A program made the translations under genes and the position numbers. This document shows, piece by piece, positions 1-44,138 of a stretch of DNA of 44,138 nt. Origin of the DNA: Escherichia phage vB_EcoS_XY2; sequence record MN927226.1; one strand, given 5' to 3'. How positions within the stretch are numbered: position 1 is the stretch's first letter; each line of letters opens with the position of its first letter. Under the pieces are notes generated by a model. It made no database searches. It worked only from the letters and a program-made list of their open reading frames with translations, and was not told the origin of the DNA.

Positions 1-40
1 TCTGGCAGGCCCCACGCTTTTACCTCATATCTCTGTACCA

Positions 41-223
41 TTACTCCACCCCTTCCACATGTGTAACTGACCCACAGTTCGCGCACTCGACGTAATCAGG
101 GTACTGGTCTTTGTATTTCTGTAGCTCAGCTTCAAGTTTCGCGTAATCTTCGTAAAGCACTAACACGCCCTCAACATCAGGAGTAAACCCGAATATCTGG
201 TCGTAGGTATATCTCTGCACCAT
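41..223 (-). CDS. small early protein (60 aa), tandem paralog of CDS 43783..44052
   Basis: ORF MVQRY...CANCGSVTHVEGVE; AGGAGA RBS before ATG at 223; last 87 nt identical to 3' end of 43783..44052; stop overlaps next ATG (TAATG). Confidence 0.6.
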   Translation of the reverse strand: MVQRYTYDQIFGFTPDVEGVLVLYEDYAKLEAELQKYKDQYPDYVECANCGSVTHVEGVE

Positions 224-2426: not shown

Positions 2427-2460
2427 AACCACCACTCCTCTGTCTCGTTTCGATAAGTGA

Positions 2461-2489
2461 ATAGTATCCTATTATATTGGGGTGTGCAA
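2461..2489 (-). promoter_or_regulatory. early promoter TTGCAC-N17-TACTAT (leftward operon)
   Basis: Reverse complement cttgcacaccccaatataataggatactattcac; near-identical to modules at 25334 and 34320. Confidence 0.5.
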
Positions 2490-3377: not shown

Positions 3378-3446
3378 AAAGAAACCCCAACGCAAGAACG
3401 TCGGGGTCAAAGCACAAATCATCAAAGTAAGCACAAGGATTATACA

Positions 3447-3575
3447 ATGACGAAGTTAATAGTTCCACAGCTGCGCCGACAGAAACACGGCGCCGATTTC
3501 TTCGCGCCGGTAAAGATGAACCGCGCAATGCGCCGTATGCAGGAAGCCTTAGAACGTGCGGAGAAAAAGAAATGA
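3447..3575 (+). CDS. small basic protein (42 aa)
   Basis: Hand-translated MTKLIVPQLRRQKHGADFFAPVKMNRAMRRMQEALERAEKKK; stop overlaps primase ATG (ATGA). Confidence 0.4.
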   Translation: MTKLIVPQLRRQKHGADFFAPVKMNRAMRRMQEALERAEKKK

Positions 3576-5794
3576 ATATTGTTTTTGCAACGCTGCGTAA
3601 CACATTCGATAAAAACCCTGTAGCGCGTGAAATGCCGCTGGAGCAGTTTGTCGAGTATGTCTGCGATACATCGAAGCGTTTATCCGTGGACCCGTCATGG
3701 ACTAAGGAAGAGTACGACGCTGCCAAGATTAAACAGAAAGCTATTGCGCCTGTTGGTGGTCGCCGTAAAAACGCTATCCTGGAAGACAGTGTGGTTAAGT
3801 TCGATTTCGACCATCTCAACCGTACTCAGTACCGCGACCTGACACGCAAATTCAAGAACGCGCCGTTCTTCAATATTCTGCACACAACGGCATCGCATCA
3901 GCACGCATGTAAAAATGGAGATTACGCTTTCCGCGTTCTGGTTCCAGCTCGCACGCCGTTTAACTCTAACGACGCGTGGATGGTGCAACGTGCTATTTGT
4001 GCAGAGTTAGAAATAGACGAAGCGTTGCGCGACCACTGCACAGAAGACGGCAACCGCCTTATCTACCTGCCGCATAAAGAGTCGAAGATAACGGTTACAG
4101 AAGGGCGTGTTATCCGTGCTGAGCGGTACATCAAGAAAGCCGAAGAGATGGGGTTGCGTAAGCGTGAGGCTAAAACACTTGCCGCCGATGAGTATGGGCT
4201 TAACGCTGATATAGCGCATTTCTGCGAAGCCGAGCTTGGCCTTGACGCTTTATCTTCCGGGCGCGGGTACGAAGTGCCATGCCCTAACGAACATCTGCAT
4301 ACAGGCAAGGGCTCCACCAGCATAATGCTCGACGGTAAAGAAGTGCGCTTTGTCTGCCAGCATACAAACAACGGCGCTTGCACCGAGCTTAACCGTAGGC
4401 AGCATTTGGCCCTGCGTATGTGTGGCCTACCCGACGAGCTTAACATAGATAAGCAACCTATCAGCATTAACAGCATTCGTGCGGCTCTGCCTGATTTACC
4501 GGAAGAAGAGATTGAAGAACTACACCGCACAGAGAACGAGGACCCAGTAACTTGCAGCCTCGACGACCTGGAAGACGATGCGGAATCAGAGGAGGACGAG
4601 TTACCAGAACCGGTAAAGGCTGATTTCGTCGTTGAAGGGTACATGCCGTCGGATTGTATCTGGGATATCGTCGGGGAATCTGGCACGTACAAATCGTTCT
4701 ATACGCTGGGGATGATGTACCTCAGCGCCGCCGGGTACAGGTTTGCGGGGGCGGATACCCAGCGTTGCCACCATTTCTATATTGATGGTGAGGGTGGCGC
4801 AGCTACACGCACCCGTATTGATGCACTAGCGGCTAAATATGGCGGGGAAGGTAAAGATTATGTACACGTCATCGATATGGGCGAAGTCGGCAAACTTAAA
4901 AGCCTGATTAAGTTAATGCGCGAAACTGCTGGCGACGAGCCAATTGGCATGGTTGCGTTCGACACCCTTAACCAGACCCTGGCACTGACGATTGATAAGT
5001 TCGACGAGAACAGTTCATCAACAGCAATCGGCATGGGTAAAGTTATCGCCATTCTGAAAGAAGTACGCGATGCAACTAAAGCCGCAGTAGGCGTTGTCCA
5101 CCATACGCCGAAGGGTGGAAAGAAAGCACGCGGCAGTGGGGCGCTGTATGCGGGTGTTGACGTGGAACTGACAATCGAACGTGCAACCGACCGTCAAATA
5201 AACGTATACCACTCGAAATTTAAGCACGGTCCTCAACAGAAAACGGTTGGCATGGTGCTGGAGTCTGTGCAGTTCCGCGAAGCTCCGCCGCCGAAAGAGT
5301 ACCGTGCGGTTGAGTTCCTGGGGGGCACAGAAGAATACGGCACAATCGTAAACCTGGACCTTCCTGAACCACACAAGGCGCTTGTGTTGATGCCGTGGGG
5401 TTTCGAGCCGTTCAAAACTGACGAGGAGAAAGAGCGGGAAGAAGGGTTGACGAAAGAAGGTAAGCAAAAAGTAAAGGAAGAAGTTAAACGCGGCAGGGAT
5501 GAAGTAAGGAAGGAGTCAATACTTTCGGCACTGGAAGACCTGCAACAGTCAGATGACACAGGTCGCGGTTTTACTCAGCAGCAGATAGTGGCTCGTTCCG
5601 GTGACTTCTCTGTGACTAACACCCATCTTGATAAAATGTTGAAAGATGGAGAACTAATGCTTGGTTGCGATGCTAACGGCGAAGTAGTACCGAGAACATA
5701 TCGTATACCCGAAAGAATAGGGGATAGATTAAGGCCGAAGACACTATACGAACCAAATGAGATGCTGGTGGTGACAGAGGAGGATTTGGAATAG
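3572..5794 (+). CDS. DNA primase/helicase-like replication protein (740 aa)
   Basis: Cys/His cluster CPNEHLHTGKGS...CQHTNNGAC; Walker-A-like GESGTYKS; position at head of replication module. Confidence 0.75.
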   Translation: MNIVFATLRNTFDKNPVAREMPLEQFVEYVCDTSKRLSVDPSWTKEEYDAAKIKQKAIAPVGGRRKNAILEDSVVKFDFDHLNRTQYRDLTRKFKNAPFFNILHTTASHQHACKNGDYAFRVLVPARTPFNSNDAWMVQRAICAELEIDEALRDHCTEDGNRLIYLPHKESKITVTEGRVIRAERYIKKAEEMGLRKREAKTLAADEYGLNADIAHFCEAELGLDALSSGRGYEVPCPNEHLHTGKGSTSIMLDGKEVRFVCQHTNNGACTELNRRQHLALRMCGLPDELNIDKQPISINSIRAALPDLPEEEIEELHRTENEDPVTCSLDDLEDDAESEEDELPEPVKADFVVEGYMPSDCIWDIVGESGTYKSFYTLGMMYLSAAGYRFAGADTQRCHHFYIDGEGGAATRTRIDALAAKYGGEGKDYVHVIDMGEVGKLKSLIKLMRETAGDEPIGMVAFDTLNQTLALTIDKFDENSSSTAIGMGKVIAILKEVRDATKAAVGVVHHTPKGGKKARGSGALYAGVDVELTIERATDRQINVYHSKFKHGPQQKTVGMVLESVQFREAPPPKEYRAVEFLGGTEEYGTIVNLDLPEPHKALVLMPWGFEPFKTDEEKEREEGLTKEGKQKVKEEVKRGRDEVRKESILSALEDLQQSDDTGRGFTQQQIVARSGDFSVTNTHLDKMLKDGELMLGCDANGEVVPRTYRIPERIGDRLRPKTLYEPNEMLVVTEEDLE

Positions 5795-5803
5795 GTAAAA
5801 AGA

Positions 5804-5822
5804 AAGGGGCTTTAAGCCCCTT
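5804..5822. terminator. hairpin AAGGGGC-tttaa-GCCCCTT between converging genes
   Basis: Stem-loop read directly; T-run follows on minus strand. Confidence 0.5.
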
Positions 5823-6027
5823 CACCTAACGCCAGCCACTTGGCGTCTACTTCCAGAACTTCCGCCAGCTTGAACAGCGTCGCCGGCCGGACGTCCTGAG
5901 TTACCCCGAGCGCAAGCTGGTTAATCGCGCCCTGGGAAACGCCAGCCAGGACCGCCAGACGGCGCTGGGAGATGCCGAGTTCTTTACGGCGTTGTTCTAC
6001 GCGGATACCTAGTTCAGATGGTTGCAT
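5812..6027 (-). CDS. XRE/Cro-CI-type HTH transcriptional regulator (71 aa)
   Basis: LGISQRRLAVLAGVSQGAINQLALG HTH motif; solo minus-strand gene divergent from 6152 operon. Confidence 0.75.
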   Translation of the reverse strand: MQPSELGIRVEQRRKELGISQRRLAVLAGVSQGAINQLALGVTQDVRPATLFKLAEVLEVDAKWLALGEGA

Positions 6028-6091
6028 GTCAATTACTCCTTAGTCAGTTGATATGTGAATAGTACCATATTAATTATTTTAGAAAAGCCCA

Positions 6092-6120
6092 TTGACATGT
6101 GAATAGTTCGCTATTATAGT
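6092..6120 (+). promoter_or_regulatory. sigma70 promoter TTGACA-N17-TATAGT with GAATAG-N4-CTATTA dyad in spacer
   Basis: Consensus -35, 17-bp spacer; dyad 6101-6116; second degenerate box 6057-6072. Confidence 0.6.
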
Positions 6121-6151
6121 TAACCCATACCAAACGAGAGGAGAGAAACAA

Positions 6152-6652
6152 ATGTTAGAGAAATTCTTAGTATTGCTGGAACGTTTCGTAGTTGCACATG
6201 AACTGATTGCCGCGAACAGTGCGAAACAAGTTGTTCAGGTTGCCGCGCCGCTGGAAGTAGAGACTGTATCGTACACCAAAGAAGCGGTAGCTGAGTGCGC
6301 TGAAGAAGCAACAAAAGAAATCCCGGTAGAAGGTGAAGACATCGTTGACACTAAACCGGCAGAAGAAGAGAAGCCAAAACGCAAGCCGCGTAAAGCTAAA
6401 GTAGAGGAAACGACGCCAGAGCCGGAAGAAGAGAAAGAAGAAGTAGACTATAAGTCTCTGCGCGACCAGATTCAGGCTATCGACGATGCAATTAACGAAG
6501 GTCCGAGCGATGCCGCGTGCGATGATTCTGATGAACTGCTGGAAGAGTTCACAGGTAAGAAAATGAAGATTGCAGCGATTAAAGACGAAGACCTGGCTGA
6601 ATACCTGGAACGCTTGACAGCAATCAAGAACAAGTATTTCGAAGAAGAATAA
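6152..6652 (+). CDS. highly acidic early protein (166 aa)
   Basis: ORF track; strong RBS; E/D-rich composition. Confidence 0.7.
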   Translation: MLEKFLVLLERFVVAHELIAANSAKQVVQVAAPLEVETVSYTKEAVAECAEEATKEIPVEGEDIVDTKPAEEEKPKRKPRKAKVEETTPEPEEEKEEVDYKSLRDQIQAIDDAINEGPSDAACDDSDELLEEFTGKKMKIAAIKDEDLAEYLERLTAIKNKYFEEE

Positions 6653-6659
6653 CTATCAG

Positions 6660-6678
6660 GCGGCCTTCGGGCCGCTTT
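6660..6678 (+). terminator. hairpin GCGGCC-TTCG-GGCCGC then TTT
   Basis: Read directly after stop of 6152..6652. Confidence 0.5.
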
Positions 6679-6695
6679 AACGGAGGGGCGGAAAT

Positions 6696-6974
6696 ATGAT
6701 TTACCAACTCTACCGCGCCGTAGACAGGCGGGATAACACAGAGGCGTTGTGGCTGTTGCGTGCGCCGTCCGGTGCACACCAGATGGAAGAGATGGCGTAC
6801 TTAGGCAAAGTACCGCGTCCTAAAGATATAGGTCGTCACGTGTCGCGGATTAAACGCACGACATTCGCCAAGCCCGACTTTTATGTCTTCGAGTCGATGT
6901 ATGGATGGGCCTTACATTGCGACCACAAGACACGGCATTTAATTGACCAGTGGGAGAGCAGAGCATGGTTTTAA
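6696..6974 (+). CDS. hypothetical protein (92 aa)
   Basis: ORF track; GGAGGGG RBS. Confidence 0.6.
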   Translation: MIYQLYRAVDRRDNTEALWLLRAPSGAHQMEEMAYLGKVPRPKDIGRHVSRIKRTTFAKPDFYVFESMYGWALHCDHKTRHLIDQWESRAWF

Positions 6975-8206
6975 AGGAACGCGGCGGAAATAACGATGTA
7001 CACGCCTTACTGTCGCCGTCTGGGGCTAAAAAGTGGCTTAGCTGCGCGGCATCACTGGCCTGTGAAAAAGATATTCCTAACACGTCAGGTAAAGCTGCGG
7101 TATTAGGCACAGCAATGCACACCATAGCTGAGATGCACCTTAACCAGTACATCAAAGGTACTGCGCTGCCGTTAGAGCGCGAAGTAGGCGCTTACGTGCT
7201 GGATGAGGGTAAAGGCCAGATTAAGGCGCTAATCAGTCCGATGAAAGGTGCTGTACTGATTACGGCGGATATGATTGAGCAGGTGCGCAAGTACACCGAC
7301 TACTGCAAAGCGATTATAGATGTAGCGACTTACGCCAAGCTGGAAATGCGCGTCAATCTTACTGAGGTATTGCATCCGGGGTATGAAGGCGTTGAGACGT
7401 TCGGAACCGCTGACATTGTTGCCGTTCAGGAACTGGCTAACACCGATGAGCACATGCTAATCATCGGCGACCTTAAAACCGGGCGACATCGTGTCGAAGC
7501 GAAAGAAAACAAGCAGCTTATGCTTTACGCTCTCGGTGTTTATCGCCGACTCAAGAGACGTTATAACATAACAGTTGTTCGTCTGGTAATCTTCCAGCCG
7601 TACACTGGCGGCGCGTCGGAGTGGGACATCTCGGTTGAAGGCCTTGAACTGTTCACTAAGTTCGCACAGAAACGCGCGCTGTTAGCTATCGATGCGTATT
7701 TCCGTGGGAAGAAGAACCTGAAAGCGTCGGACTTCAAGCCGTCGGTCGATGGTTGTCAGTGGTGTCGGTTCTCAGAACAGTGCGCCGCGCGTACAAAAAC
7801 CGTCAACTCTGTGCTGGCGGAAGAACTGGAGGACGATTTTGCGCTTGAGCTTACGCCAGAGCAACTCGTAGCTGAGTATGAGAAGTTGCCGCTGTTGCGC
7901 CAGCACATCGACAAGGTTGAGAAAGCTATGGCCGTCGCATTGCATTCCGGTAAGAAGGTGCCGGGGTACAAGCTGGTTGAAGGACGCCAGGGTAATCGTG
8001 CGTGGAAAGACGCAGAGAAAGTAGCAGAACTCTACGGCGACAAGCTGACTAAAGAAGTGCTCATGTCACCTACCGAAGCTGTTAAAGTGATACCGGAAGA
8101 AGAACTGAAAGACTTCATCACACGTAAGCCGGGTGCACCATGTGTTGCAACGGCAGACGACAAGCGTCCTGAGTGGGATCAGGTAACAGAGGAGGATTTG
8201 GAATGA
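6965..8206 (+). CDS. PD-(D/E)XK nuclease, DUF2800/Cas4-like, with C-terminal Cys cluster
   Basis: GDLKTGRHRVEAKENKQLMLYALGVY nuclease core and CQWCRFSEQC; ATG at 6965 after GGGAGAG. Confidence 0.7.
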   Translation: MVLKERGGNNDVHALLSPSGAKKWLSCAASLACEKDIPNTSGKAAVLGTAMHTIAEMHLNQYIKGTALPLEREVGAYVLDEGKGQIKALISPMKGAVLITADMIEQVRKYTDYCKAIIDVATYAKLEMRVNLTEVLHPGYEGVETFGTADIVAVQELANTDEHMLIIGDLKTGRHRVEAKENKQLMLYALGVYRRLKRRYNITVVRLVIFQPYTGGASEWDISVEGLELFTKFAQKRALLAIDAYFRGKKNLKASDFKPSVDGCQWCRFSEQCAARTKTVNSVLAEELEDDFALELTPEQLVAEYEKLPLLRQHIDKVEKAMAVALHSGKKVPGYKLVEGRQGNRAWKDAEKVAELYGDKLTKEVLMSPTEAVKVIPEEELKDFITRKPGAPCVATADDKRPEWDQVTEEDLE

Positions 8207-8376
8207 TGGTTTATATTCTCACGCGGTATCACCGCCGATATTCTATTCAAGAACTTGATATTGTTTCTGTTCACGCTAAACGCACCGACGCCGACAAAAT
8301 TGCAGAAGAGAAGAACTCGAAGCATGAGGCGGTGCAGCCCTATATTTATAAGGTAGTTCCGAAGAAACTTAAATAA
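8203..8376 (+). CDS. hypothetical protein (57 aa)
   Basis: ATGA overlap with nuclease stop; GAGGAGGA RBS lies in nuclease 3' end. Confidence 0.5.
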   Translation: MMVYILTRYHRRYSIQELDIVSVHAKRTDADKIAEEKNSKHEAVQPYIYKVVPKKLK

Positions 8377-8380
8377 AGTG

Positions 8381-8409
8381 TTGACACCTGAATAGTTAGC
8401 TATTATAGT
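8381..8409 (+). promoter_or_regulatory. sigma70 promoter TTGACA-N17-TATAGT with GAATAG-N4-CTATTA dyad
   Basis: Same architecture as 6092-6120; upstream of CDS 8464. Confidence 0.6.
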
Positions 8410-8463
8410 TCTAATCACTGACCGGGCAGCTTCCCGGAGTAAACTGAAAAGCGAGAAATCACG

Positions 8464-9090
8464 ATGGGTATTAAACTGAATCTGCGTAAAGTAAACACTG
8501 CATGGGTTAACGTATTTGAACGTGAAAAAGACCGTGAAAACGATGATGGCTCAATCACTAAAGGCCAGTACAGCGCGACTATCATCCTGCCGTATGACCA
8601 TGCTCAAATCGATGCACTCTACGGCACCGTTTACGCTGTAGTTGAAGAAGCGTTAGGCGCAGCCGCTGCCGAGAAATGGATGAAGTCCAACTACGGTGAA
8701 GGTAAGCACATGGATAAATGCGCGATTAAAGACATTGCCGAGCGCGACAATCCGTTTGAAGACTTCCCGGAAGGCTTCTACTTCAAAGCGAAGGCACAGA
8801 AACAGCCGCTGATTGTAACCTCTAAAAAAGGTGAGACTCAGGTAGAGCAGGACTTCAACGTAGACGGCGAACAGATTGAAGGTGAACAGGTTTACAGCGG
8901 ATGCTTAGCTAACGTAAGCGTTGAAATCTGGTTCAGCCAGAAATACAAAGTCCTCGGCGTTAACCTGCTGGCGATTAAATACGTTGGCGAAGGCAAAGCG
9001 TTCGGCGGTTCTAAAGTCGCTGCGAGCGTCAATGACCTGGAAGACGACGAAGAAGATGAAGCACCGCGCCGCGAACGTCGCCGCCGCTAA
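8464..9090 (+). CDS. DUF2815-like putative ssDNA-binding protein
   Basis: ORF track; sits between DUF2800 nuclease and DNA polymerase; acidic tail DLEDDEEDE. Confidence 0.55.
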   Translation: MGIKLNLRKVNTAWVNVFEREKDRENDDGSITKGQYSATIILPYDHAQIDALYGTVYAVVEEALGAAAAEKWMKSNYGEGKHMDKCAIKDIAERDNPFEDFPEGFYFKAKAQKQPLIVTSKKGETQVEQDFNVDGEQIEGEQVYSGCLANVSVEIWFSQKYKVLGVNLLAIKYVGEGKAFGGSKVAASVNDLEDDEEDEAPRRERRRR

Positions 9091-9109
9091 TATCTGAATC
9101 AATTTAACT

Positions 9110-9132
9110 AAGGCCCTTCATTGGGCCTTTTT
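9110..9132 (+). terminator. Rho-independent terminator AAGGCCC-ttcatt-GGGCCTT then TTTTT
   Basis: Hairpin plus T-tract after stop of 8464..9090. Confidence 0.65.
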
Positions 9133-9149
9133 ACTAGGGGTCAAAAATA

Positions 9150-11351
9150 ATGAGTTACCTGTTCTTAGACTTTGAAACATTCTCAGAAGCCGATTTGAAG
9201 AAAGTCGGTTCTTACGCTTACGCCGAACACCCGTCAACCGAAGTGCTTATCTGTACATATGCTTTTGACGACGAACCTGTGCGGGTATGGGATTGCACCG
9301 ACGGCAGCGACATGCCGGGGGATTTACACCGCGCACTGCGCCGCCTTGTTAAGCCCAACAGCCGCATCAAGATGGTGTGGCACAACGGTGGACTTTTCGA
9401 TCGCCTAATCATGAAACACTGCTGGGACTTTGATATTCCGGTAAGTAACACCATTGATACTATGATTTGGGCGTTCCGCCACGCGCTGCCGGGTTCTCTT
9501 GATGCGCTGTGCGAAGTGCTGGGCGTGTCTGCAGACAACGCGAAAGATAAACGCGGCAAGGCTCTGATTAAGCGTTTCTCTAAACCGACGCCGAAGAACT
9601 ACAAAATCCGCCGCTACACCGCAGAAACTCACCCTGACGAGTGGGCGATGTTCATCAGGTACGCCGTGAGCGACATCACTGCGATGCGTGAAGTCTTCCA
9701 TAAGCTGCCGCGTTGGGGTAACTCCGAGTTCGAAGACCGTGTACTGGAACTTGACCAGTTAATCAACGACCGCGGATTTAAGGTTGACGTCGCACTGGCG
9801 GAAGCCGCGATTGAAGCCGTAGAGAAGCACAAGGCACAGTTACAGGAAGAAGCTCAACGTAAATACGGCGGCTCGCTTACCGGTAAAGACTTCCTTCCGA
9901 TTCTGCGTGAACTTTCGCCCGCGCACCGCATACACAATGCACAGAAGTCGACGCTTAACGACCTGTTGGCAGATGATGATTTACCGGACGACGCCCGGAT
10001 GATTATCGAAATGCGCCTCGGGGCCGCGTCAACAGCGTCAACGAAATATACCCCGCTGCTGTTGGGCCGCTCGTCGGACGACCGCCGTCGTGGTTGCTTG
10101 CAGTACGGCGGAGCGAAACGTACTCTGCGATGGGCGGGTAAAGGATTCCAGCCGCAGAACCTGGCGCGAGGTTACTATCACGATGATGAACTGGATAAAG
10201 GCATTTCAGCGTTACTTAAGGGTCGAGCGCATCGCCGTTTTGATGTAGCCAAGCTAACAGCATCTACGGTTCGTAGCTGCATTATCCCGGAAGCGGGGTA
10301 TAAGTTTGTCGTTGCCGATTACTCTAACGTTGAAGGCCGTGGTTTAGCGTGGCTGGCCGGAGAAGAAACCGCGCTCGATACGTTCCGCGCCGGACTGGAT
10401 ATTTACTGCGTAACCGCAGGTAAGATGTTCGGCATGGACCCCGATGACATTAAGAAAAACTTCAAGGAAATCAGACAGATAGGCAAGGCTTGCGAGCTTG
10501 GCCTCGGCTATGAAGGCGGCGTCGGAGCGTTCGTTACGTTCGCCAAAAACTTAGGTCTTGACCTTATTGAGATGGCAAAAACAATGGACGGTACATTCCC
10601 CGACCACATCTGGTCAGCCACCGCGAGAGGATATGAATGGGCGCGCATCCAGGAAGCCAAGCGCCCCCCGCATCCAGGTGAAAAGGACGACAGGCCATCA
10701 TATATTCTTGATAAAAAAGTATGGCGTACTTGTGACGCTATCAAGCGTATGTGGCGCGAGTCACACCCGGAAACAGTAGCGTTCTGGCGCGACCTTAAAG
10801 ATGGAATTTTAGCCGCTGTGCGTAATCCTGGTCGTGAATTTTGGGCGGGGGCACACTTGCGCAGAAATGGGGAAAGGGCTATCCGCATATGGCGTACTGT
10901 AGAATTTGATTCATCCGGTAGGAAGGTTCCGGGTTGGTGGTTGTGTATGGAGTTGCCGTCTGGCCGTATCCTCTCGTATCCGGGAATCGGGGTTAGTGTG
11001 ACAAAGGAAACAGATGAAGACGGACGGGTGAACACGAATGTGCGAATCAAGTATCAAGGTGAAAACCAGTTAACCCGCCAATGGACTACCCTGTACACAC
11101 ACGGCGGCAAAGCCTGCGAAAACATTGTTCAGGCGCTGTGCCGGGATTTACTCGCATATGCGATGATTAAGGTTGAGGATGGCGGGTATCCCATCGTGCT
11201 TTCGGTACACGATGAACTGGTGTGCGAAACTCCAGATACGCCGGAATACAGTGTGGCTGAACTGGAACGATTGATGTGCGCGTTGCCTGAGTGGGCAGAA
11301 GGCTTCCCTCTTGTAGCGGAAGGTAGCGAAATGTACAGATATGCTAAATGA
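9150..11351 (+). CDS. family-A DNA polymerase with N-terminal 3'-5' exonuclease domain
   Basis: N-terminal FLDFETFS exonuclease motif; 733-aa ORF. Confidence 0.8.
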   Translation: MSYLFLDFETFSEADLKKVGSYAYAEHPSTEVLICTYAFDDEPVRVWDCTDGSDMPGDLHRALRRLVKPNSRIKMVWHNGGLFDRLIMKHCWDFDIPVSNTIDTMIWAFRHALPGSLDALCEVLGVSADNAKDKRGKALIKRFSKPTPKNYKIRRYTAETHPDEWAMFIRYAVSDITAMREVFHKLPRWGNSEFEDRVLELDQLINDRGFKVDVALAEAAIEAVEKHKAQLQEEAQRKYGGSLTGKDFLPILRELSPAHRIHNAQKSTLNDLLADDDLPDDARMIIEMRLGAASTASTKYTPLLLGRSSDDRRRGCLQYGGAKRTLRWAGKGFQPQNLARGYYHDDELDKGISALLKGRAHRRFDVAKLTASTVRSCIIPEAGYKFVVADYSNVEGRGLAWLAGEETALDTFRAGLDIYCVTAGKMFGMDPDDIKKNFKEIRQIGKACELGLGYEGGVGAFVTFAKNLGLDLIEMAKTMDGTFPDHIWSATARGYEWARIQEAKRPPHPGEKDDRPSYILDKKVWRTCDAIKRMWRESHPETVAFWRDLKDGILAAVRNPGREFWAGAHLRRNGERAIRIWRTVEFDSSGRKVPGWWLCMELPSGRILSYPGIGVSVTKETDEDGRVNTNVRIKYQGENQLTRQWTTLYTHGGKACENIVQALCRDLLAYAMIKVEDGGYPIVLSVHDELVCETPDTPEYSVAELERLMCALPEWAEGFPLVAEGSEMYRYAK

Positions 11352-12230: not shown

Positions 12231-12559
12231 CTAAAGAGGGCCGCATCCAGAAATACGCAAAAGAGCGATTCGAGGCCATTGGTGGCCTCGTTCGTAAACT
12301 TTCCTACGAAGGACGTTCAGGCGCTCCTGACCTGCTGGCAATTCTACCCGGCGGCATCGTCTGGTTCGTCGAGGTGAAGAAAGACGAAAACACTAAGCCA
12401 GACCCGCACCAGCTACGGGAACACGAGCGTATACGTAAACGTGGCGCAAATGTTTTTGTCGTTGGTTCGATAAAACAGATTGACACCCTAATAGCAGACT
12501 ATTATAGTAAGCACATACCCCAACAATATAAGGAATTTAGAAATGAAACACGAATATGA
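12227..12559 (+). CDS. VRR-NUC domain nuclease
   Basis: GAPDLLAILPGGIVWFVEVKK core read as VRR-NUC. Confidence 0.7.
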   Translation: MTKEGRIQKYAKERFEAIGGLVRKLSYEGRSGAPDLLAILPGGIVWFVEVKKDENTKPDPHQLREHERIRKRGANVFVVGSIKQIDTLIADYYSKHIPQQYKEFRNETRI

Positions 12560-43493: not shown

Positions 43494-43783
43494 TTATGTC
43501 TCCAGATGTATTGTCGTCTCTGTGGTTTCGTCGGAATATCATCGTACCCCAGCGATTTCCAGTAATTAAATAGCCGGTTCGCGATAGCTGCGCGTTCCTT
43601 TGTTTTAAACTCACCGAGATTCACTGCCTTTCCGTTCTGGAATCCACAGGCGCGGATAGCTTTACGCCGTTCTTGTATCTCTGGGTACAGCACGTTACGG
43701 CGACGCTTGTGTATACGTGTCTTCGCTCTCGGTGACAGCGGCGCAAGGCCGCTTCGTTTCAGGATGTCAGTTGCTAACGACAT
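43490..43783 (-). CDS. basic hypothetical protein (97 aa)
   Basis: ATG 43783 overlaps stop of upstream paralog (TAATG). Confidence 0.55.
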   Translation of the reverse strand: MSLATDILKRSGLAPLSPRAKTRIHKRRRNVLYPEIQERRKAIRACGFQNGKAVNLGEFKTKERAAIANRLFNYWKSLGYDDIPTKPQRRQYIWRHK

Positions 43784-43869
43784 TACTCCACCCCTTCCAC
43801 ATGTGTAACTGACCCACAGTTCGCGCACTCGACGTAATCAGGGTACTGGTCTTTGTATTTCTGTAGCTC
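43781..43869. repeat. 89-bp direct repeat, copy 2 (copy 1 at 39..127)
   Basis: Exact 89-nt identity read directly; covers 3' end of a paralog plus start codon of next gene. Confidence 0.9.
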
Positions 43870-44052
43870 GGCGTTTACTTCTGCCAGTCTCGACACAAGC
43901 CCTTCTATTTCCTTGTCGGCGTCGGCTAGACGTTCCTGGTAATAGTCGTCCAGTTCCTTATAGCTGTCGTACTCTACATAATCGCCGTATGCGTACTCAG
44001 CCATCTCAGGCTCTGGCAGGCCCCACGCTTTTACCTCATATCTCTGTACCAT
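43783..44052 (-). CDS. small early protein (89 aa), tandem paralog of CDS 41..223
   Basis: MVQRYEVKAWGL...CANCGSVTHVEGVE; shares N-terminal MVQRY and identical C-terminal 29 aa with the 41..223 product. Confidence 0.6.
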   Translation of the reverse strand: MVQRYEVKAWGLPEPEMAEYAYGDYVEYDSYKELDDYYQERLADADKEIEGLVSRLAEVNAELQKYKDQYPDYVECANCGSVTHVEGVE

Positions 44053-44138
44053 TACTCCACCCCTTCCACATGTGTAACTGACCCACAGTTCGCGCACTCG
44101 ACGTAATCAGGGTACTGGTCTTTGTATTTCTGTAGCTC
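44012..44138. repeat. 127-bp terminal redundancy identical to positions 1..127
   Basis: Exact identity of window ends; runs through coding sequence. Confidence 0.95.

What the first reader, a model, noticed from the sequence alone, without database searches (positions are those of the whole stretch)
5770..5794. Primase and DUF2800 nuclease end with the same heptapeptide VTEEDLE encoded by an identical 19-nt stretch
The 3' ends of CDS 3572..5794 and CDS 6965..8206 both read ACAGAGGAGGATTTGGAAT plus stop. In the nuclease this also supplies the RBS for the overlapping next gene, but no gene follows the primase, so RBS function alone does not explain it. By analogy with acidic C-terminal tails of T7 replication proteins that dock onto the polymerase, this could be a shared interaction tag. 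The SSB-like protein also ends in an acidic DLEDDEEDE segment.
Basis: partly seen in the sequence, partly recalled or inferred. Interest (0 to 1): 0.45.

Follow-up and report, generated by a model that had tools for sequence, protein, structure and literature searches.

The report
Shared docking tail on phage replication proteins
The identical ends of the phage primase-helicase and nuclease are two copies of a short acidic "…E-D-L-E" peptide that also occurs in the phage's single-strand DNA-binding protein. The peptide is conserved across distant relatives with different codons, so it most likely acts as a common docking tag like the one known in phage T7, and the 19-base DNA identity is a by-product.

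Summary
ACAGAGGAGGATTTGGAAT occurs only at 5774-5792 and 8186-8204 and encodes (V)TEEDLE+stop at the ends of the primase-helicase and the DUF2800 nuclease. The window is Escherichia phage vB_EcoS_XY2 (Kagunavirus).

The DNA identity itself is not special. Only 5 of 17 relatives with the same two peptides have identical codons, and the two tails are no more alike within a genome than between genomes. The GAGGAGG codons track the presence of an ATGA-overlapping downstream gene. Sister phages have such a gene after the primase too.

The peptide is what is under selection. An acidic-x-D-L end is found in 81/82 primase-helicases and 82/86 nucleases of Guernseyvirinae and Dhillonvirus. It is found in 1/3718 other ORFs. 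All six Leu codons are used.

XY2 has exactly four copies genome-wide: primase linker, primase end, nuclease end, and the start of the gp2.5-like SSB tail.

Distant duf2800-gp2.5-polA modules show the same principle with other sequences. In Enc34, five proteins end in …DEV.

Best reading: a T7-like shared docking motif for one phage-encoded partner, either the SSB groove or PolA. The partner was not tested here. This is a new variant of a known kind.

The parts
3572..5794 (+). Replicative primase-helicase CDS (740 aa). The helicase half is RepA-like (AAA_25).
   Evidence: ORF and translation. Pfam AAA_25 at residues 345-516. PHROG 3228 'replicative helicase-primase'. 100% identical to the vB_EcoS_XY2 protein.
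4553..4585 (+). Internal copy of the motif in the primase-helicase interdomain linker: C-S-L-D-D-L-E-D-D-A-E.
   Evidence: One of only four genome-wide matches to [DEN]DL[DEGS][DEN]. 80% nt identity to the SSB copy (D9). The pattern C-[STQ]-x-[DE]-D-L-x-[DN]-[ED]-P is conserved just upstream of the helicase domain in all lineages.
5771..5791 (+). C-terminal tail VTEEDLE of the primase-helicase. Copy 1 of the 19-nt repeat is 5774-5792 and the stop TAG is 5792-5794.
   Evidence: The D-L end is conserved in 81/82 relatives and all six Leu codons are used.
5803..5823 (.). GC-rich hairpin between the convergent primase and HTH-regulator genes. No + strand gene follows the primase in this phage.
   Evidence: Terminator-like hit on the - strand. 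Sequence. ORF list.
6965..8206 (+). DUF2800 / PD-(D/E)XK exonuclease CDS (413 aa).
   Evidence: The Pfam DUF2800 match spans residues 13-402 and stops before the tail; PDDEXK_1 also matches. PHROG 69 'exonuclease'.
8183..8203 (+). C-terminal tail VTEEDLE of the nuclease. Copy 2 of the 19-nt repeat is 8186-8204. GAGGAGG at 8189-8195 also serves as the Shine-Dalgarno sequence of the next gene.
   Evidence: The D-L end is conserved in 82/86 relatives. GAGGAGG is present in 22/35 tails with an overlapping start and in 3/51 without one.
8203..8376 (+). Small accessory gene (57 aa) whose ATG overlaps the nuclease stop (ATGA). It occupies a variable slot.
   Evidence: At least 10 unrelated gene families occupy this slot in relatives. 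No Pfam or PHROG match.
8464..9090 (+). gp2.5-like ssDNA-binding / annealing protein (DUF2815, Enc34_ssDNA-bd), 208 aa. Candidate receptor and also a carrier of the motif.
   Evidence: Pfam PF10991. PHROG 112. Weak PDB sequence hits to 4JG2 and Enc34 ORF6 5ODJ.
9025..9060 (+). SSB copy of the motif (S-V-N-D-L-E-D-D-E-E-D-E), at the start of the disordered tail just after the OB-fold …FGG. It is followed by the basic end APRRERRRR (9061-9087).
   Evidence: D191 and L192 are invariant in the SSB alignment. The equivalent ATDSDLDD, NDDDLDDD and SDEDLGDD occur in other lineages.
9150..11351 (+). Family A DNA polymerase (733 aa). It has no copy of the motif and is the candidate receptor by analogy with T7 gp5.
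   Evidence: Pfam DNA_pol_A and 3'-5' exonuclease domain. PHROG 17. No motif found.

Best explanation
VTEEDLE is one instance of a short linear peptide motif, roughly [ST]-acidic-x-D-L followed by acidic residues or by the C-terminus. In this phage it occurs four times: in the primase-helicase linker, at the primase-helicase C-terminus, at the DUF2800 exonuclease C-terminus, and at the start of the disordered tail of the gp2.5-like SSB.

Shown: the motif is under purifying selection at the protein level. It is specific to these three proteins. Its exact spelling changes together in the proteins of one genome across lineages.

Inferred: it is a docking tag that plugs these proteins into one phage-encoded partner, in the way the DxDF tails of T7 gp4 and gp2.5 share binding sites on T7 DNA polymerase.

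My preferred receptor is the ssDNA-binding groove of the SSB itself. The proximal tail of DUF2815 and gp2.5 proteins docks there in trans in crystals. Under this model the two enzymes that generate ssDNA, the helicase and the exonuclease, carry or recruit SSB/annealase and hand it to nascent ssDNA. The PolA polymerase is the main alternative receptor.

The 19-nt identity has no function of its own. It arises from the same peptide combined with the same codon choice. GAG-GAG-GAT forms the Shine-Dalgarno sequence of ATGA-overlapping accessory genes that sit after both genes in this phage group. XY2 has lost the one after the primase.
For: Protein-level conservation:
- The tails are VTEEDLE/VTEEDLE (Shashou), VTEEDLE/VSEEDLE (K1ind2), TTEGDLE/VTEDDLEA (Jerseyvirus wksl3), TSEEDDLEN/ATDSDLED (Cornellvirus), ATDDDLKD/ATDEDLSNE (Dhillonvirus) and ASDEDLNS/ASDEDLS (Klebsiella 37P2), with unrelated codons.
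- Over the window plus 87 loci, the pattern [DEN]xDL+0-3 aa+end is found in 81/82 primases and 82/86 nucleases. It is found in 1/3718 other six-frame ORFs of at least 100 aa.
- D-L is invariant. Asp uses GAT/GAC and Leu uses TTG/TTA/CTG/CTA/CTC/CTT.

Independence from the RBS:
- K1ind2-type nuclease tails are followed by TAA plus a promoter. They keep VSEEDLE but use GTTAGTGAAGAAGAT, which has no SD.

Specificity in XY2:
- The relaxed motif has exactly 4 hits in 39,398 aa of six-frame ORFs, all in primase-helicase, nuclease and SSB.
- These are also the only two proteins with acidic C-termini.

Same motif in SSB and linker:
-.

Co-variation within genomes:
- In W5 the nuclease has ATDSDLED and the SSB has ATDSDLDD.
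- In 80 distant duf2800-gp2.5 loci the nuclease tail copies the SSB tail: AESLI/AESLI, EGLV/EGLV, DDFM/EDFM, AEFI/GEFV.
- The last 2-4 residues are more alike within a genome than in shuffled pairings, 0/10000.
- In Enc34 the primase ends …DPFDDEDEV, the exonuclease …GAYDDEDEDDDEV, the SSB …DAYDEDEDEWDEDEV and TerS …DDDEV, each with different codons.

Precedent:
- T7 gp2.5 ends …DEDGDF and gp4 ends …NDTDF.
- PMC12339929 describes the gp2.5 tail anchoring to the gp5 front basic patch, and used the gp4-tail peptide DTDF in PDB 6P7E as the template for that modelling.

Receptor hint:
- In the Enc34 SSB crystal, the end of the traceable tail inserts into the concave-sheet groove of a neighbouring SSB. 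By my count from the published primers and residue numbers this is …TSDAYD, which is the motif.
- Similar contacts are reported in two other DUF2815 structures and in gp2.5 (PMC5686142).

Partner is phage-encoded:
- T7, XY2 and Dhillonvirus all infect E. coli yet use different tail spellings.
Against: - No binding was measured or modelled. The only structure prediction possible here, the SSB with a 14-sequence alignment, failed (pLDDT 36).
- The motif is short and acidic, so part of the resemblance between proteins could reflect a generic need for acidic tails on DNA-binding proteins.
- In the SSB and the linker the motif is internal, unlike the strictly C-terminal Phe of T7.
- Natural variants show some tolerance: …EEDL without the last E (3 cases), …EEDSE, and …DDLEALTS.
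- The co-variation statistics do not correct for shared ancestry of the genomes.
- In Enc34 and some distant loci the small terminase also carries the tail. That fits neither a pure polymerase hub nor a pure SSB hub comfortably.
- Bas14 phages with a truncated DUF2800 nuclease are viable, so tail phenotypes may be subtle.
Confidence: 0.65

Rival explanations
1. Nucleotide-level explanation only. The repeat is a Shine-Dalgarno/translational-coupling cassette (GAGGAGG-N7-ATGA) for a downstream overlapping gene. The primase copy is a relic of such a cassette, and the shared peptide is a side effect.
For: The nuclease copy does drive an ATGA-overlapping gene. In Shashou and many IMG/VR Kagunaviruses the primase stop is also overlapped by a gene, and the Shashou record annotates an RBS inside the tail. 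An SD core is present in 34/35 nuclease tails with an overlapping start and in 17/51 without one.
Against: The peptide persists where no SD and no downstream gene exist. Examples are the K1ind2-type nuclease GTTAGTGAAGAAGATTTGGAATAA followed by a promoter, Dhillonvirus primase GATGACGACCTGAAAGATTAA, and the Cornellvirus and 37P2 primases. The invariant Leu lies outside the SD and uses all six codons. Internal copies in the SSB and the primase linker cannot be RBSs. This mechanism explains the codon choice but not the motif.
Confidence: 0.05
2. Recent duplication, gene conversion or a recombination junction. The two tails are kept identical by DNA exchange, or the shared 19-23 nt serves as a homology patch for shuffling the accessory genes that follow both genes.
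For: Identity is 22/23 nt in XY2. Both tails sit exactly at the border of highly variable accessory-gene slots.
Against: Mean nucleotide difference between the two tails is 1.18 within a genome and 1.22 for cross-genome pairings. Exact identity is found in 5/17 within genomes and 16% across genomes. No gene family is found in both slots. In Cornellvirus, Dhillonvirus, 37P2 and Enc34 the shared peptides use different codons, for example Ser AGT vs TCC.
Confidence: 0.05
3. Cis-acting DNA-mimic tails. Each acidic tail folds back on the DNA-binding site of its own protein to tune DNA affinity or specificity, with no common partner. The similarity reflects the same physicochemical requirement.
For: The gp2.5 tail competes with ssDNA for the protein's own groove, per the title of Marintcheva et al. 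2008 as cited in PMC5686142. Removing the Enc34 SSB tail abolishes ssDNA/dsDNA discrimination. All carriers are DNA-binding proteins, including TerS in Enc34.
Against: Generic acidity does not predict an invariant D-L. It also does not predict genome-specific identical endings such as DEV in five Enc34 proteins, AESLI/AESLI or EGLV in three proteins, nor a second copy in the primase linker.
Confidence: 0.15
4. Host-directed tag. The tail docks onto a host protein such as an SSB-tail-binding enzyme, the clamp or a protease adaptor, or it is a degradation or phosphorylation signal.
For: The form acidic-plus-hydrophobic C-terminus resembles the E. coli SSB tail (own knowledge). [ST]-x-x-[DE] also looks like a CK2-type site.
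Against: Phages of the same host (T7, XY2, Dhillonvirus, all on E. coli) use different spellings, while proteins within one genome agree. There is no match to the clamp-binding consensus QL[SD]LF or to the SSB tail …DDDIPF (sequence inspection, consensus from own knowledge). The motif travels with the duf2800-gp2.5-polA module across hosts of different phyla.
Confidence: 0.08

Closest known systems
Bacteriophage T7 acidic C-terminal tails of gp4 helicase-primase (…DTDF) and gp2.5 SSB (…DGDF), reported to dock on the DNA polymerase gp5/thioredoxin
   Same: Two or more replisome proteins of one phage carry the same short acidic tail with a key hydrophobic residue preceded by Asp (D-x-D-F vs E-x-D-L). 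The carriers include the helicase-primase and a gp2.5-fold SSB. The replisome is built around a family A polymerase without a clamp.
   Different: Here the third carrier is a DUF2800 PD-(D/E)XK exonuclease, whereas T7 gp6 has no such tail. The hydrophobic residue is Leu and is followed by 0-3 residues instead of being the C-terminal Phe. The SSB copy is internal and the SSB ends in a basic RRERRRR. The helicase-primase has a second copy in its linker. The helicase is RepA/AAA_25-like and is not a gp4 homologue. Binding to the polymerase is not shown.
duf2800-gp2.5-polA replication/recombination module (Steczkiewicz et al. 2021, PMC8093625; Enc34 ORF6 structure, PMC5686142)
   Same: XY2 has the module in the canonical order nuclease, (small gene), SSB, PolA. 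The SSB tail region that docks in the neighbour's groove in DUF2815 crystals corresponds to the motif.
   Different: The papers I read on this module do not describe the nuclease and primase tails copying the SSB tail. My library searches turned up no paper that does.
Exonuclease-annealase two-component recombinases (lambda Exo-Red-beta, RecE-RecT; 'EATR/SynExo')
   Same: A 5'-3' resection nuclease is physically coupled to the ssDNA-annealing protein so that the annealase is loaded on nascent ssDNA (PMC11611040). The nuclease-SSB reading proposed here works like this.
   Different: The folds and the interface are different. Per my own knowledge, Exo binds the folded Red-beta C-terminal domain. 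Here a disordered tail peptide is proposed to bind an OB-fold groove, and the same tag is also on the helicase-primase.
E. coli SSB C-terminal tip (…DDDIPF) interaction hub
   Same: An acidic, hydrophobic-ended peptide is used as a universal docking element in DNA metabolism (own knowledge; reviewed in PMC9917605).
   Different: The polarity is reversed. In E. coli one protein (SSB) carries the tail and many partners have pockets. Here many proteins carry the tail, which implies one pocket.
Translational coupling by ATGA stop/start overlap with an SD inside the upstream coding sequence
   Same: The nuclease copy, and the primase copy in sister phages, does exactly this.
   Different: Coupling explains the codon choice GAGGAGG. 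It does not explain conservation of the peptide or its presence where no gene follows.

Membership tests
T7-type shared acidic docking tails (gp4/gp2.5 to gp5) | The helicase-primase ends in a short acidic tail that is shared with another replisome protein of the same phage. | tested here: met
   VTEEDLE is on both the primase-helicase and the nuclease, and the related SVNDLEDDEEDE is in the SSB. For comparison T7 has …DTDF and …DGDF.
T7-type shared acidic docking tails (gp4/gp2.5 to gp5) | The C-terminal residue is an aromatic Phe that is required for function. | tested here: not met
   The conserved hydrophobic residue is Leu and is followed by E, S, NS, KD, SNE and so on. F- or Y-type versions exist only in distant modules. 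That T7's C-terminal Phe is essential is stated from my own knowledge.
T7-type shared acidic docking tails (gp4/gp2.5 to gp5) | The SSB carries the motif at its extreme C-terminus. | tested here: not met
   The motif lies 14 residues from the end, and the SSB ends in APRRERRRR.
T7-type shared acidic docking tails (gp4/gp2.5 to gp5) | The tails bind basic patches of the family A DNA polymerase. | not testable with these tools
   No complex prediction was available. XY2 PolA aligns with solved PolA structures only over the palm/fingers core, and T7 gp5 was not among the listed hits, so the gp5 basic patch could not be mapped.
T7-type shared acidic docking tails (gp4/gp2.5 to gp5) | The helicase-primase is homologous to gp4 (DnaG-type primase plus DnaB-type helicase). 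| tested here: not met
   Only Pfam AAA_25 (RepA-like) matches. There is no PDB sequence relative at E <= 0.01. PHROG 3228.
duf2800-gp2.5-polA module | DUF2800 PD-(D/E)XK nuclease, DUF2815/gp2.5-like SSB and family A polymerase encoded side by side. | tested here: met
   PF10926 and PF12705, PF10991, and PF00476 at 6965-8206, 8464-9090 and 9150-11351. The module is described in PMC8093625.
Short linear motif under purifying selection | Conserved residues with synonymous codon turnover, located in a disordered or terminal region, and specific to a defined set of proteins. | tested here: met
   The tail lies outside the Pfam DUF2800 model, which ends at residue 402. A C-terminal disordered region was predicted for the Bas14 homologue.
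SD / ATGA translational-coupling cassette | An SD 5-10 nt upstream of a start codon that overlaps the stop of the upstream gene. | tested here: met
   Met for the nuclease copy: GAGGAGG at 8189-8195 and ATG at 8203. Not met for the XY2 primase copy, which has TAG and no start. Met for the primase copy in Shashou and about 19 other relatives.
Gene conversion between dispersed repeats | The copies are more alike within a genome than between genomes. | tested here: not met
   1.18 vs 1.22 nt differences. Identical in 5/17 within genomes vs 16% in cross pairings.
Bacterial clamp-binding or SSB-tip motifs | QL[SD]LF-type pentapeptide or …D-D-D-I-P-F end (consensus from own knowledge). | tested here: not met
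   Inspection of the tail sequences finds no match.

The most novel reading that the evidence does not exclude
The very widespread duf2800-gp2.5-polA phage module uses a genome-specific, co-evolving 'tail code'. The SSB's own tail peptide is copied onto every enzyme that has to work on SSB-covered or nascent ssDNA: helicase-primase, resection exonuclease, and in some phages the small terminase. All copies compete for one pocket, the ssDNA groove of the SSB, giving a hand-off mechanism for loading and unloading SSB/annealase. XY2's VTEEDLE pair would be the Guernseyvirinae spelling of that code.
Probability: 0.3. Interest if true: 0.75.

Novelty: new variant of a known kind. Interest (0 to 1): 0.55.

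Why it matters
If the tag works as proposed, it gives a simple sequence-readable rule for which proteins belong to the replisome/recombination machine in thousands of uncharacterised siphoviruses: look for proteins that share the SSB's tail peptide. It would extend the T7 paradigm of shared acidic tails to a recombination nuclease and to a non-gp4 helicase-primase.

It also yields cheap experiments in tractable phages, since close relatives Bas70-76 are in the BASEL collection. Tail deletions, tail swaps and peptide binding are all feasible. The motif could help engineer cognate exonuclease/annealase pairs for recombineering.

There is a practical lesson for genome scans as well. An exact DNA repeat at two gene ends was the visible trace of a peptide motif, not a DNA element.

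Tried and rejected
1. AlphaFold2 of the XY2 SSB with the 14 sequences allowed (alignment A3), to see whether the tail docks on the OB fold. Mean pLDDT was 36, which is unusable.

2. Mapping the T7 gp5 basic patch onto XY2 PolA by sequence. Only about 60-110 residues of the polymerase core align with solved PolA structures, and T7 gp5 was not among the listed hits.

3. PDB sequence search with the primase-helicase. No hit.

4. Test for ectopic exchange through the repeat. Genes found after the primase and after the nuclease form disjoint families, so this was rejected.

5. Test for gene conversion. There is no within-genome excess similarity, so this was rejected.

6. The search for homologous proteins for the nuclease and the primase returned only sequences at least 86% identical to the query. 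These were uninformative for conservation. The informative divergence came from annotated phage records, two IMG/VR scans and the representative search.

7. A first, too-strict SSB regular expression missed the Kagunavirus spelling V-N-D-L-E-D. The relaxed pattern fixed this.

8. Literature searches for a prior description of shared nuclease/primase/SSB tails in DUF2800/DUF2815 phages. None was found in the held library, which is not exhaustive.
Full report
**What the window is.** The 44,138-bp window is the genome of Escherichia phage vB_EcoS_XY2. Its primase-helicase is 100% identical to that phage's protein, on a 44,138-bp contig. XY2 is a Kagunavirus (Guernseyvirinae) and is about 96% identical over 3400-9200 to BASEL phages Bas70-76. 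The region of interest is a replication/recombination block:
- primase-helicase, 3572..5794
- a convergent HTH regulator, 5812..6027 on the - strand
- two small genes
- DUF2800 PD-(D/E)XK exonuclease, 6965..8206
- a 57-aa gene starting at 8203
- gp2.5-like SSB (DUF2815), 8464..9090
- family A DNA polymerase, 9150..11351

This is the known duf2800-gp2.5-polA module (PMC8093625).

**Check of the observation.** ACAGAGGAGGATTTGGAAT occurs only at 5774-5792 and 8186-8204, with none expected in shuffles. Including the GGTx prefix, the match is 22/23. Both copies encode VTEEDLE plus a stop. In the nuclease copy, GAGGAGG (8189-8195) lies 7 nt before an ATG that overlaps the TGA stop. After the primase stop (TAG) there is only a GC hairpin (5803-5823) and the convergent HTH gene. 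The SSB contains …SVNDLEDDEEDE but ends in APRRERRRR.

**Is the DNA identity itself meaningful?** No. I compared 39 relatives in which both tails end in …DLE. The two 18-nt tails differ at 0-7 positions. Among the 17 genomes where both peptides are TEEDLE, 5 have identical DNA. Mean difference is 1.18 nt within a genome and 1.22 nt for cross-genome pairings, so nothing keeps the two copies alike. XY2 simply combines the commonest primase allele with the second-commonest nuclease allele.

Codon choice does follow the RBS role:
- Nuclease tails followed by TGA with an overlapping ATG use ACA GAG GAG GAT. Those followed by TAA plus the conserved promoter use AGT GAA GAA GAT (peptide VSEEDLE) and have no SD.
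- Overall, 34/35 nuclease tails with an overlapping start contain an SD core, against 17/51 without one.
- In Shashou and many metagenomic Kagunaviruses the primase stop is also overlapped (ATGA) by a gene. At least five unrelated gene families occupy that slot and at least ten occupy the slot after the nuclease.

So the primase copy in XY2 keeps the RBS-forming codons of an accessory-gene slot that is occupied in sister phages and empty in this one.

**What is conserved is the peptide.** Annotated relatives give these primase/nuclease tail pairs, with unrelated codons, for example Ser AGT vs TCC:

| Phage | Primase tail | Nuclease tail |
|---|---|---|
| Shashou | VTEEDLE | VTEEDLE |
| K1ind2 | VTEEDLE | VSEEDLE |
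| Jerseyvirus wksl3 | TTEGDLE | VTEDDLEA |
| Cornellvirus W5 | TSEEDDLEN | ATDSDLED |
| Dhillonvirus Bas83 | ATDDDLKD | ATDEDLSNE |
| Klebsiella 37P2 | ASDEDLNS | ASDEDLS |

In the last three lineages the primase gene is even on the opposite strand to the nuclease operon.

I then added 80 IMG/VR loci. The pattern [DEN]-x-D-L plus 0-3 residues plus end is present in 81/82 complete primase-helicases and 82/86 nucleases. It is present in 1 of 3718 other six-frame ORFs of at least 100 aa. D-L is invariant. Both Asp codons and all six Leu codons occur at these positions. This is purifying selection on a peptide, independent of any downstream gene.

**More copies in the same genome.** A relaxed pattern, [DEN]DL[DEGS] followed by D/E/N or the end, hits exactly four times in all six-frame ORFs of at least 50 aa in XY2, which total 39,398 aa:
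- the two C-termini
- the SSB at 9031-9045 (…FGGSKVAASVNDLEDDEEDE), immediately after the OB fold
- the primase-helicase interdomain linker at 4562-4576 (…VTCSLDDLEDDAESEEDE)

The SSB copy is present in every lineage: ATDSDLDD in Cornellvirus, NDDDLDDD in 37P2, SDEDLGDD in Dhillonvirus. The Cornellvirus spelling is nearly the same as its nuclease tail ATDSDLED. The linker copy, C-[STQ]-x-[DE]-D-L-x-[DN]-[ED]-P, is also universal, just before the helicase domain. The primase-helicase and the nuclease are the only XY2 proteins with acidic C-termini. PolA, the SNF2 helicase and the terminase lack the motif.

**The principle extends beyond this group.**
- The 150 best 50%-cluster representatives of the nuclease end either in …D-L-x or, further away, in [DE][DE]F[DE]D[LIV], often followed by a terminal …DDL[VI].
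- In 80 distant duf2800 loci every locus had a DUF2815 SSB. The nuclease tail copies the SSB tail of the same genome:

| Locus | Nuclease tail | SSB tail |
|---|---|---|
| L092 | DDFEDVTSDENVEDLV | DEFDDIAEGATADDLV |
| L099 | …AESLI | …AESLI |
| L123 | …EGLV | …EGLV |
| L147 | …DDFM | …EDFM |
| L118 | …AEFI | …GEFV |

- The last 2-4 residues match more often within genomes than in 10,000 shuffled pairings, with none of the shuffles reaching the observed value. Shared ancestry is not corrected for.
- The strict F-motif is present in 51/79 SSB tails and 20/80 nuclease tails. It is present in 3/5325 other ORFs, one of which is a P4-type primase-helicase ending QDDFEDIP in a genome whose SSB ends …PDFTDIP.
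- In phage Enc34 the primase ends …DPFDDEDEV, the exonuclease …GAYDDEDEDDDEV, the SSB …SDAYDEDEDEWDEDEV, ORF3 …GEEEEV and the small terminase …EADDDEV, each with different codons.
- T7 itself has gp2.5 …ADEDGDF and gp4 …SNDTDF, and its gp6 exonuclease has no such tail.

**Mechanism.**

Shown: a short peptide is shared by three proteins of DNA replication and recombination. It is under protein-level selection, it is specific to these proteins, and it changes in concert within genomes.

Inferred: it is a docking tag for one partner. The partner is probably phage-encoded, because T7, XY2 and Dhillonvirus share E. coli as host yet use different spellings.

There are two candidate receptors.
- (a) The ssDNA-binding groove of the gp2.5-like SSB. 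In the Enc34 SSB crystal the end of the traceable tail inserts into the concave sheet of a neighbouring molecule and buries 842 Å². By my count from the published primers and residue numbers this segment is …TSDAYD, which is the motif. The authors report similar contacts in two other DUF2815 structures and in gp2.5 (PMC5686142). The title of Marintcheva et al. 2008, cited there, states that the gp2.5 tail competes with ssDNA for the same binding surface. Under this model the helicase and the exonuclease, the two enzymes that create ssDNA, hold or recruit SSB/annealase through an SSB-tail mimic and release it onto nascent ssDNA. This is the coupling known for exonuclease-annealase pairs (PMC11611040).
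- (b) The family A polymerase, as described for T7, where PMC12339929 models the gp2.5 tail on the front basic patch of gp5 using the gp4-tail peptide DTDF of PDB 6P7E as template.

I favour (a) at about 0.4, against (b) at about 0.3 and something else at about 0.3. The reasons are that the motif works as an internal peptide and that the structural hint comes from the same protein family. None of this was tested here.

**Rivals.**
- RBS only: refuted as a sole cause, because the peptide is kept without an SD or a downstream gene, and because internal copies exist.
- Gene conversion or a recombination junction: there is no within-genome excess similarity and no shared slot genes.
- Cis-acting DNA-mimic tails: possible, but this does not predict an invariant D-L or genome-specific identical endings.
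- Host-directed tag: unlikely, given the different spellings in phages of one host.

**What failed.** PolA cannot be aligned to T7 gp5 outside the catalytic core. The primase-helicase has no solved relative by sequence.

**Comparison and novelty.** The system works like the T7 gp4/gp2.5 tails but is not a member of that family in the strict sense:
- the hydrophobic residue is Leu rather than a terminal Phe
- the SSB copy is internal
- the helicase-primase is not homologous to gp4
- an exonuclease carries the tag

I found no description of this tail sharing in the held literature on DUF2800/DUF2815 phages. The Bas14 retron paper only notes a predicted disordered C-terminal region in the nuclease. 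I rate it a new variant of a known kind with moderate interest (0.55). The concept has a clear precedent, however, and the binding partner is not established.

Noticed in passing
window 1-127, 44012-44138, 43743-43869: The first and last 127 bases are identical, and a third copy 78% identical lies 269 bases before the end (D1). This is either terminal redundancy or an assembly overlap of a circularly permuted genome.
   Followed up: no
window 2450-2479, 6048-6077, 6092-6121, 8381-8410, 12480-12509: There are five copies of a sigma-70-like promoter with an unusually conserved spacer (TTGACAnnTGAATAGTnnnCTATTATAGTT). Two of them score 11/12. Two copies flank the divergent region next to the HTH regulator gene, so the conserved spacer may be its operator.
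   Followed up: partly
window 5803-5823: A GC hairpin sits between the convergent primase and HTH-regulator genes. The regulator's stop codon (5812-5814) lies in the loop. The hairpin has a T-run only on the - strand.
   Followed up: partly
window 5792-5830 and 8203-8376; relatives L002-L087: Both conserved tails mark the 5' edge of accessory-gene slots. At least five unrelated small genes start with an ATGA overlap on the primase stop and at least ten on the nuclease stop in relatives. XY2 has none after the primase and a 57-aa gene of unknown function after the nuclease.
   Followed up: partly
window 9061-9087; L005-L007, L057-L087: After the acidic motif the SSB ends in a basic APRRERRRR. 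In Dhillonvirus, Cornellvirus and 37P2-like phages an acidic/basic unit (for example DDDDEDDKPRKSKKSKRR) is repeated 2-4 times. This is an unusual tail for a gp2.5-type SSB and its function is unknown.
   Followed up: no
L169 (Enc34) 10318-10893; L108, L109, L113, L116, L121-L123, L125, L150, L156: Small-terminase-like proteins carry the same C-terminal ending as the SSB and nuclease of their genome: Enc34 …DDDEV, and L123 …DGLV against …EGLV in both the SSB and the nuclease. This may link packaging to the replication/recombination proteins. XY2's small terminase has no such tail.
   Followed up: partly
window 4497-4525, 6420-6448, 8091-8112: A second set of short acidic repeats, PEEE[IKL][EK]E…, occurs in the primase-helicase, the 166-aa ORF 6152..6652 and the nuclease (D4/D10). 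It may be low-complexity coincidence.
   Followed up: no
literature; homologue of window 6965-8206: The DUF2800 nuclease of Dhillonvirus Bas14 is reported as the trigger of retron type IX (Sen3). Escape mutants carry missense or truncating mutations in it (bioRxiv 10.64898/2026.07.14.737667). The XY2 nuclease may therefore be a defence-system trigger too.
   Followed up: no
P0253: This is a 758-aa representative in which the DUF2800 nuclease (residues 354-756, ending …TDDDLSD) is fused to a 350-aa N-terminal extension of unknown nature.
   Followed up: no
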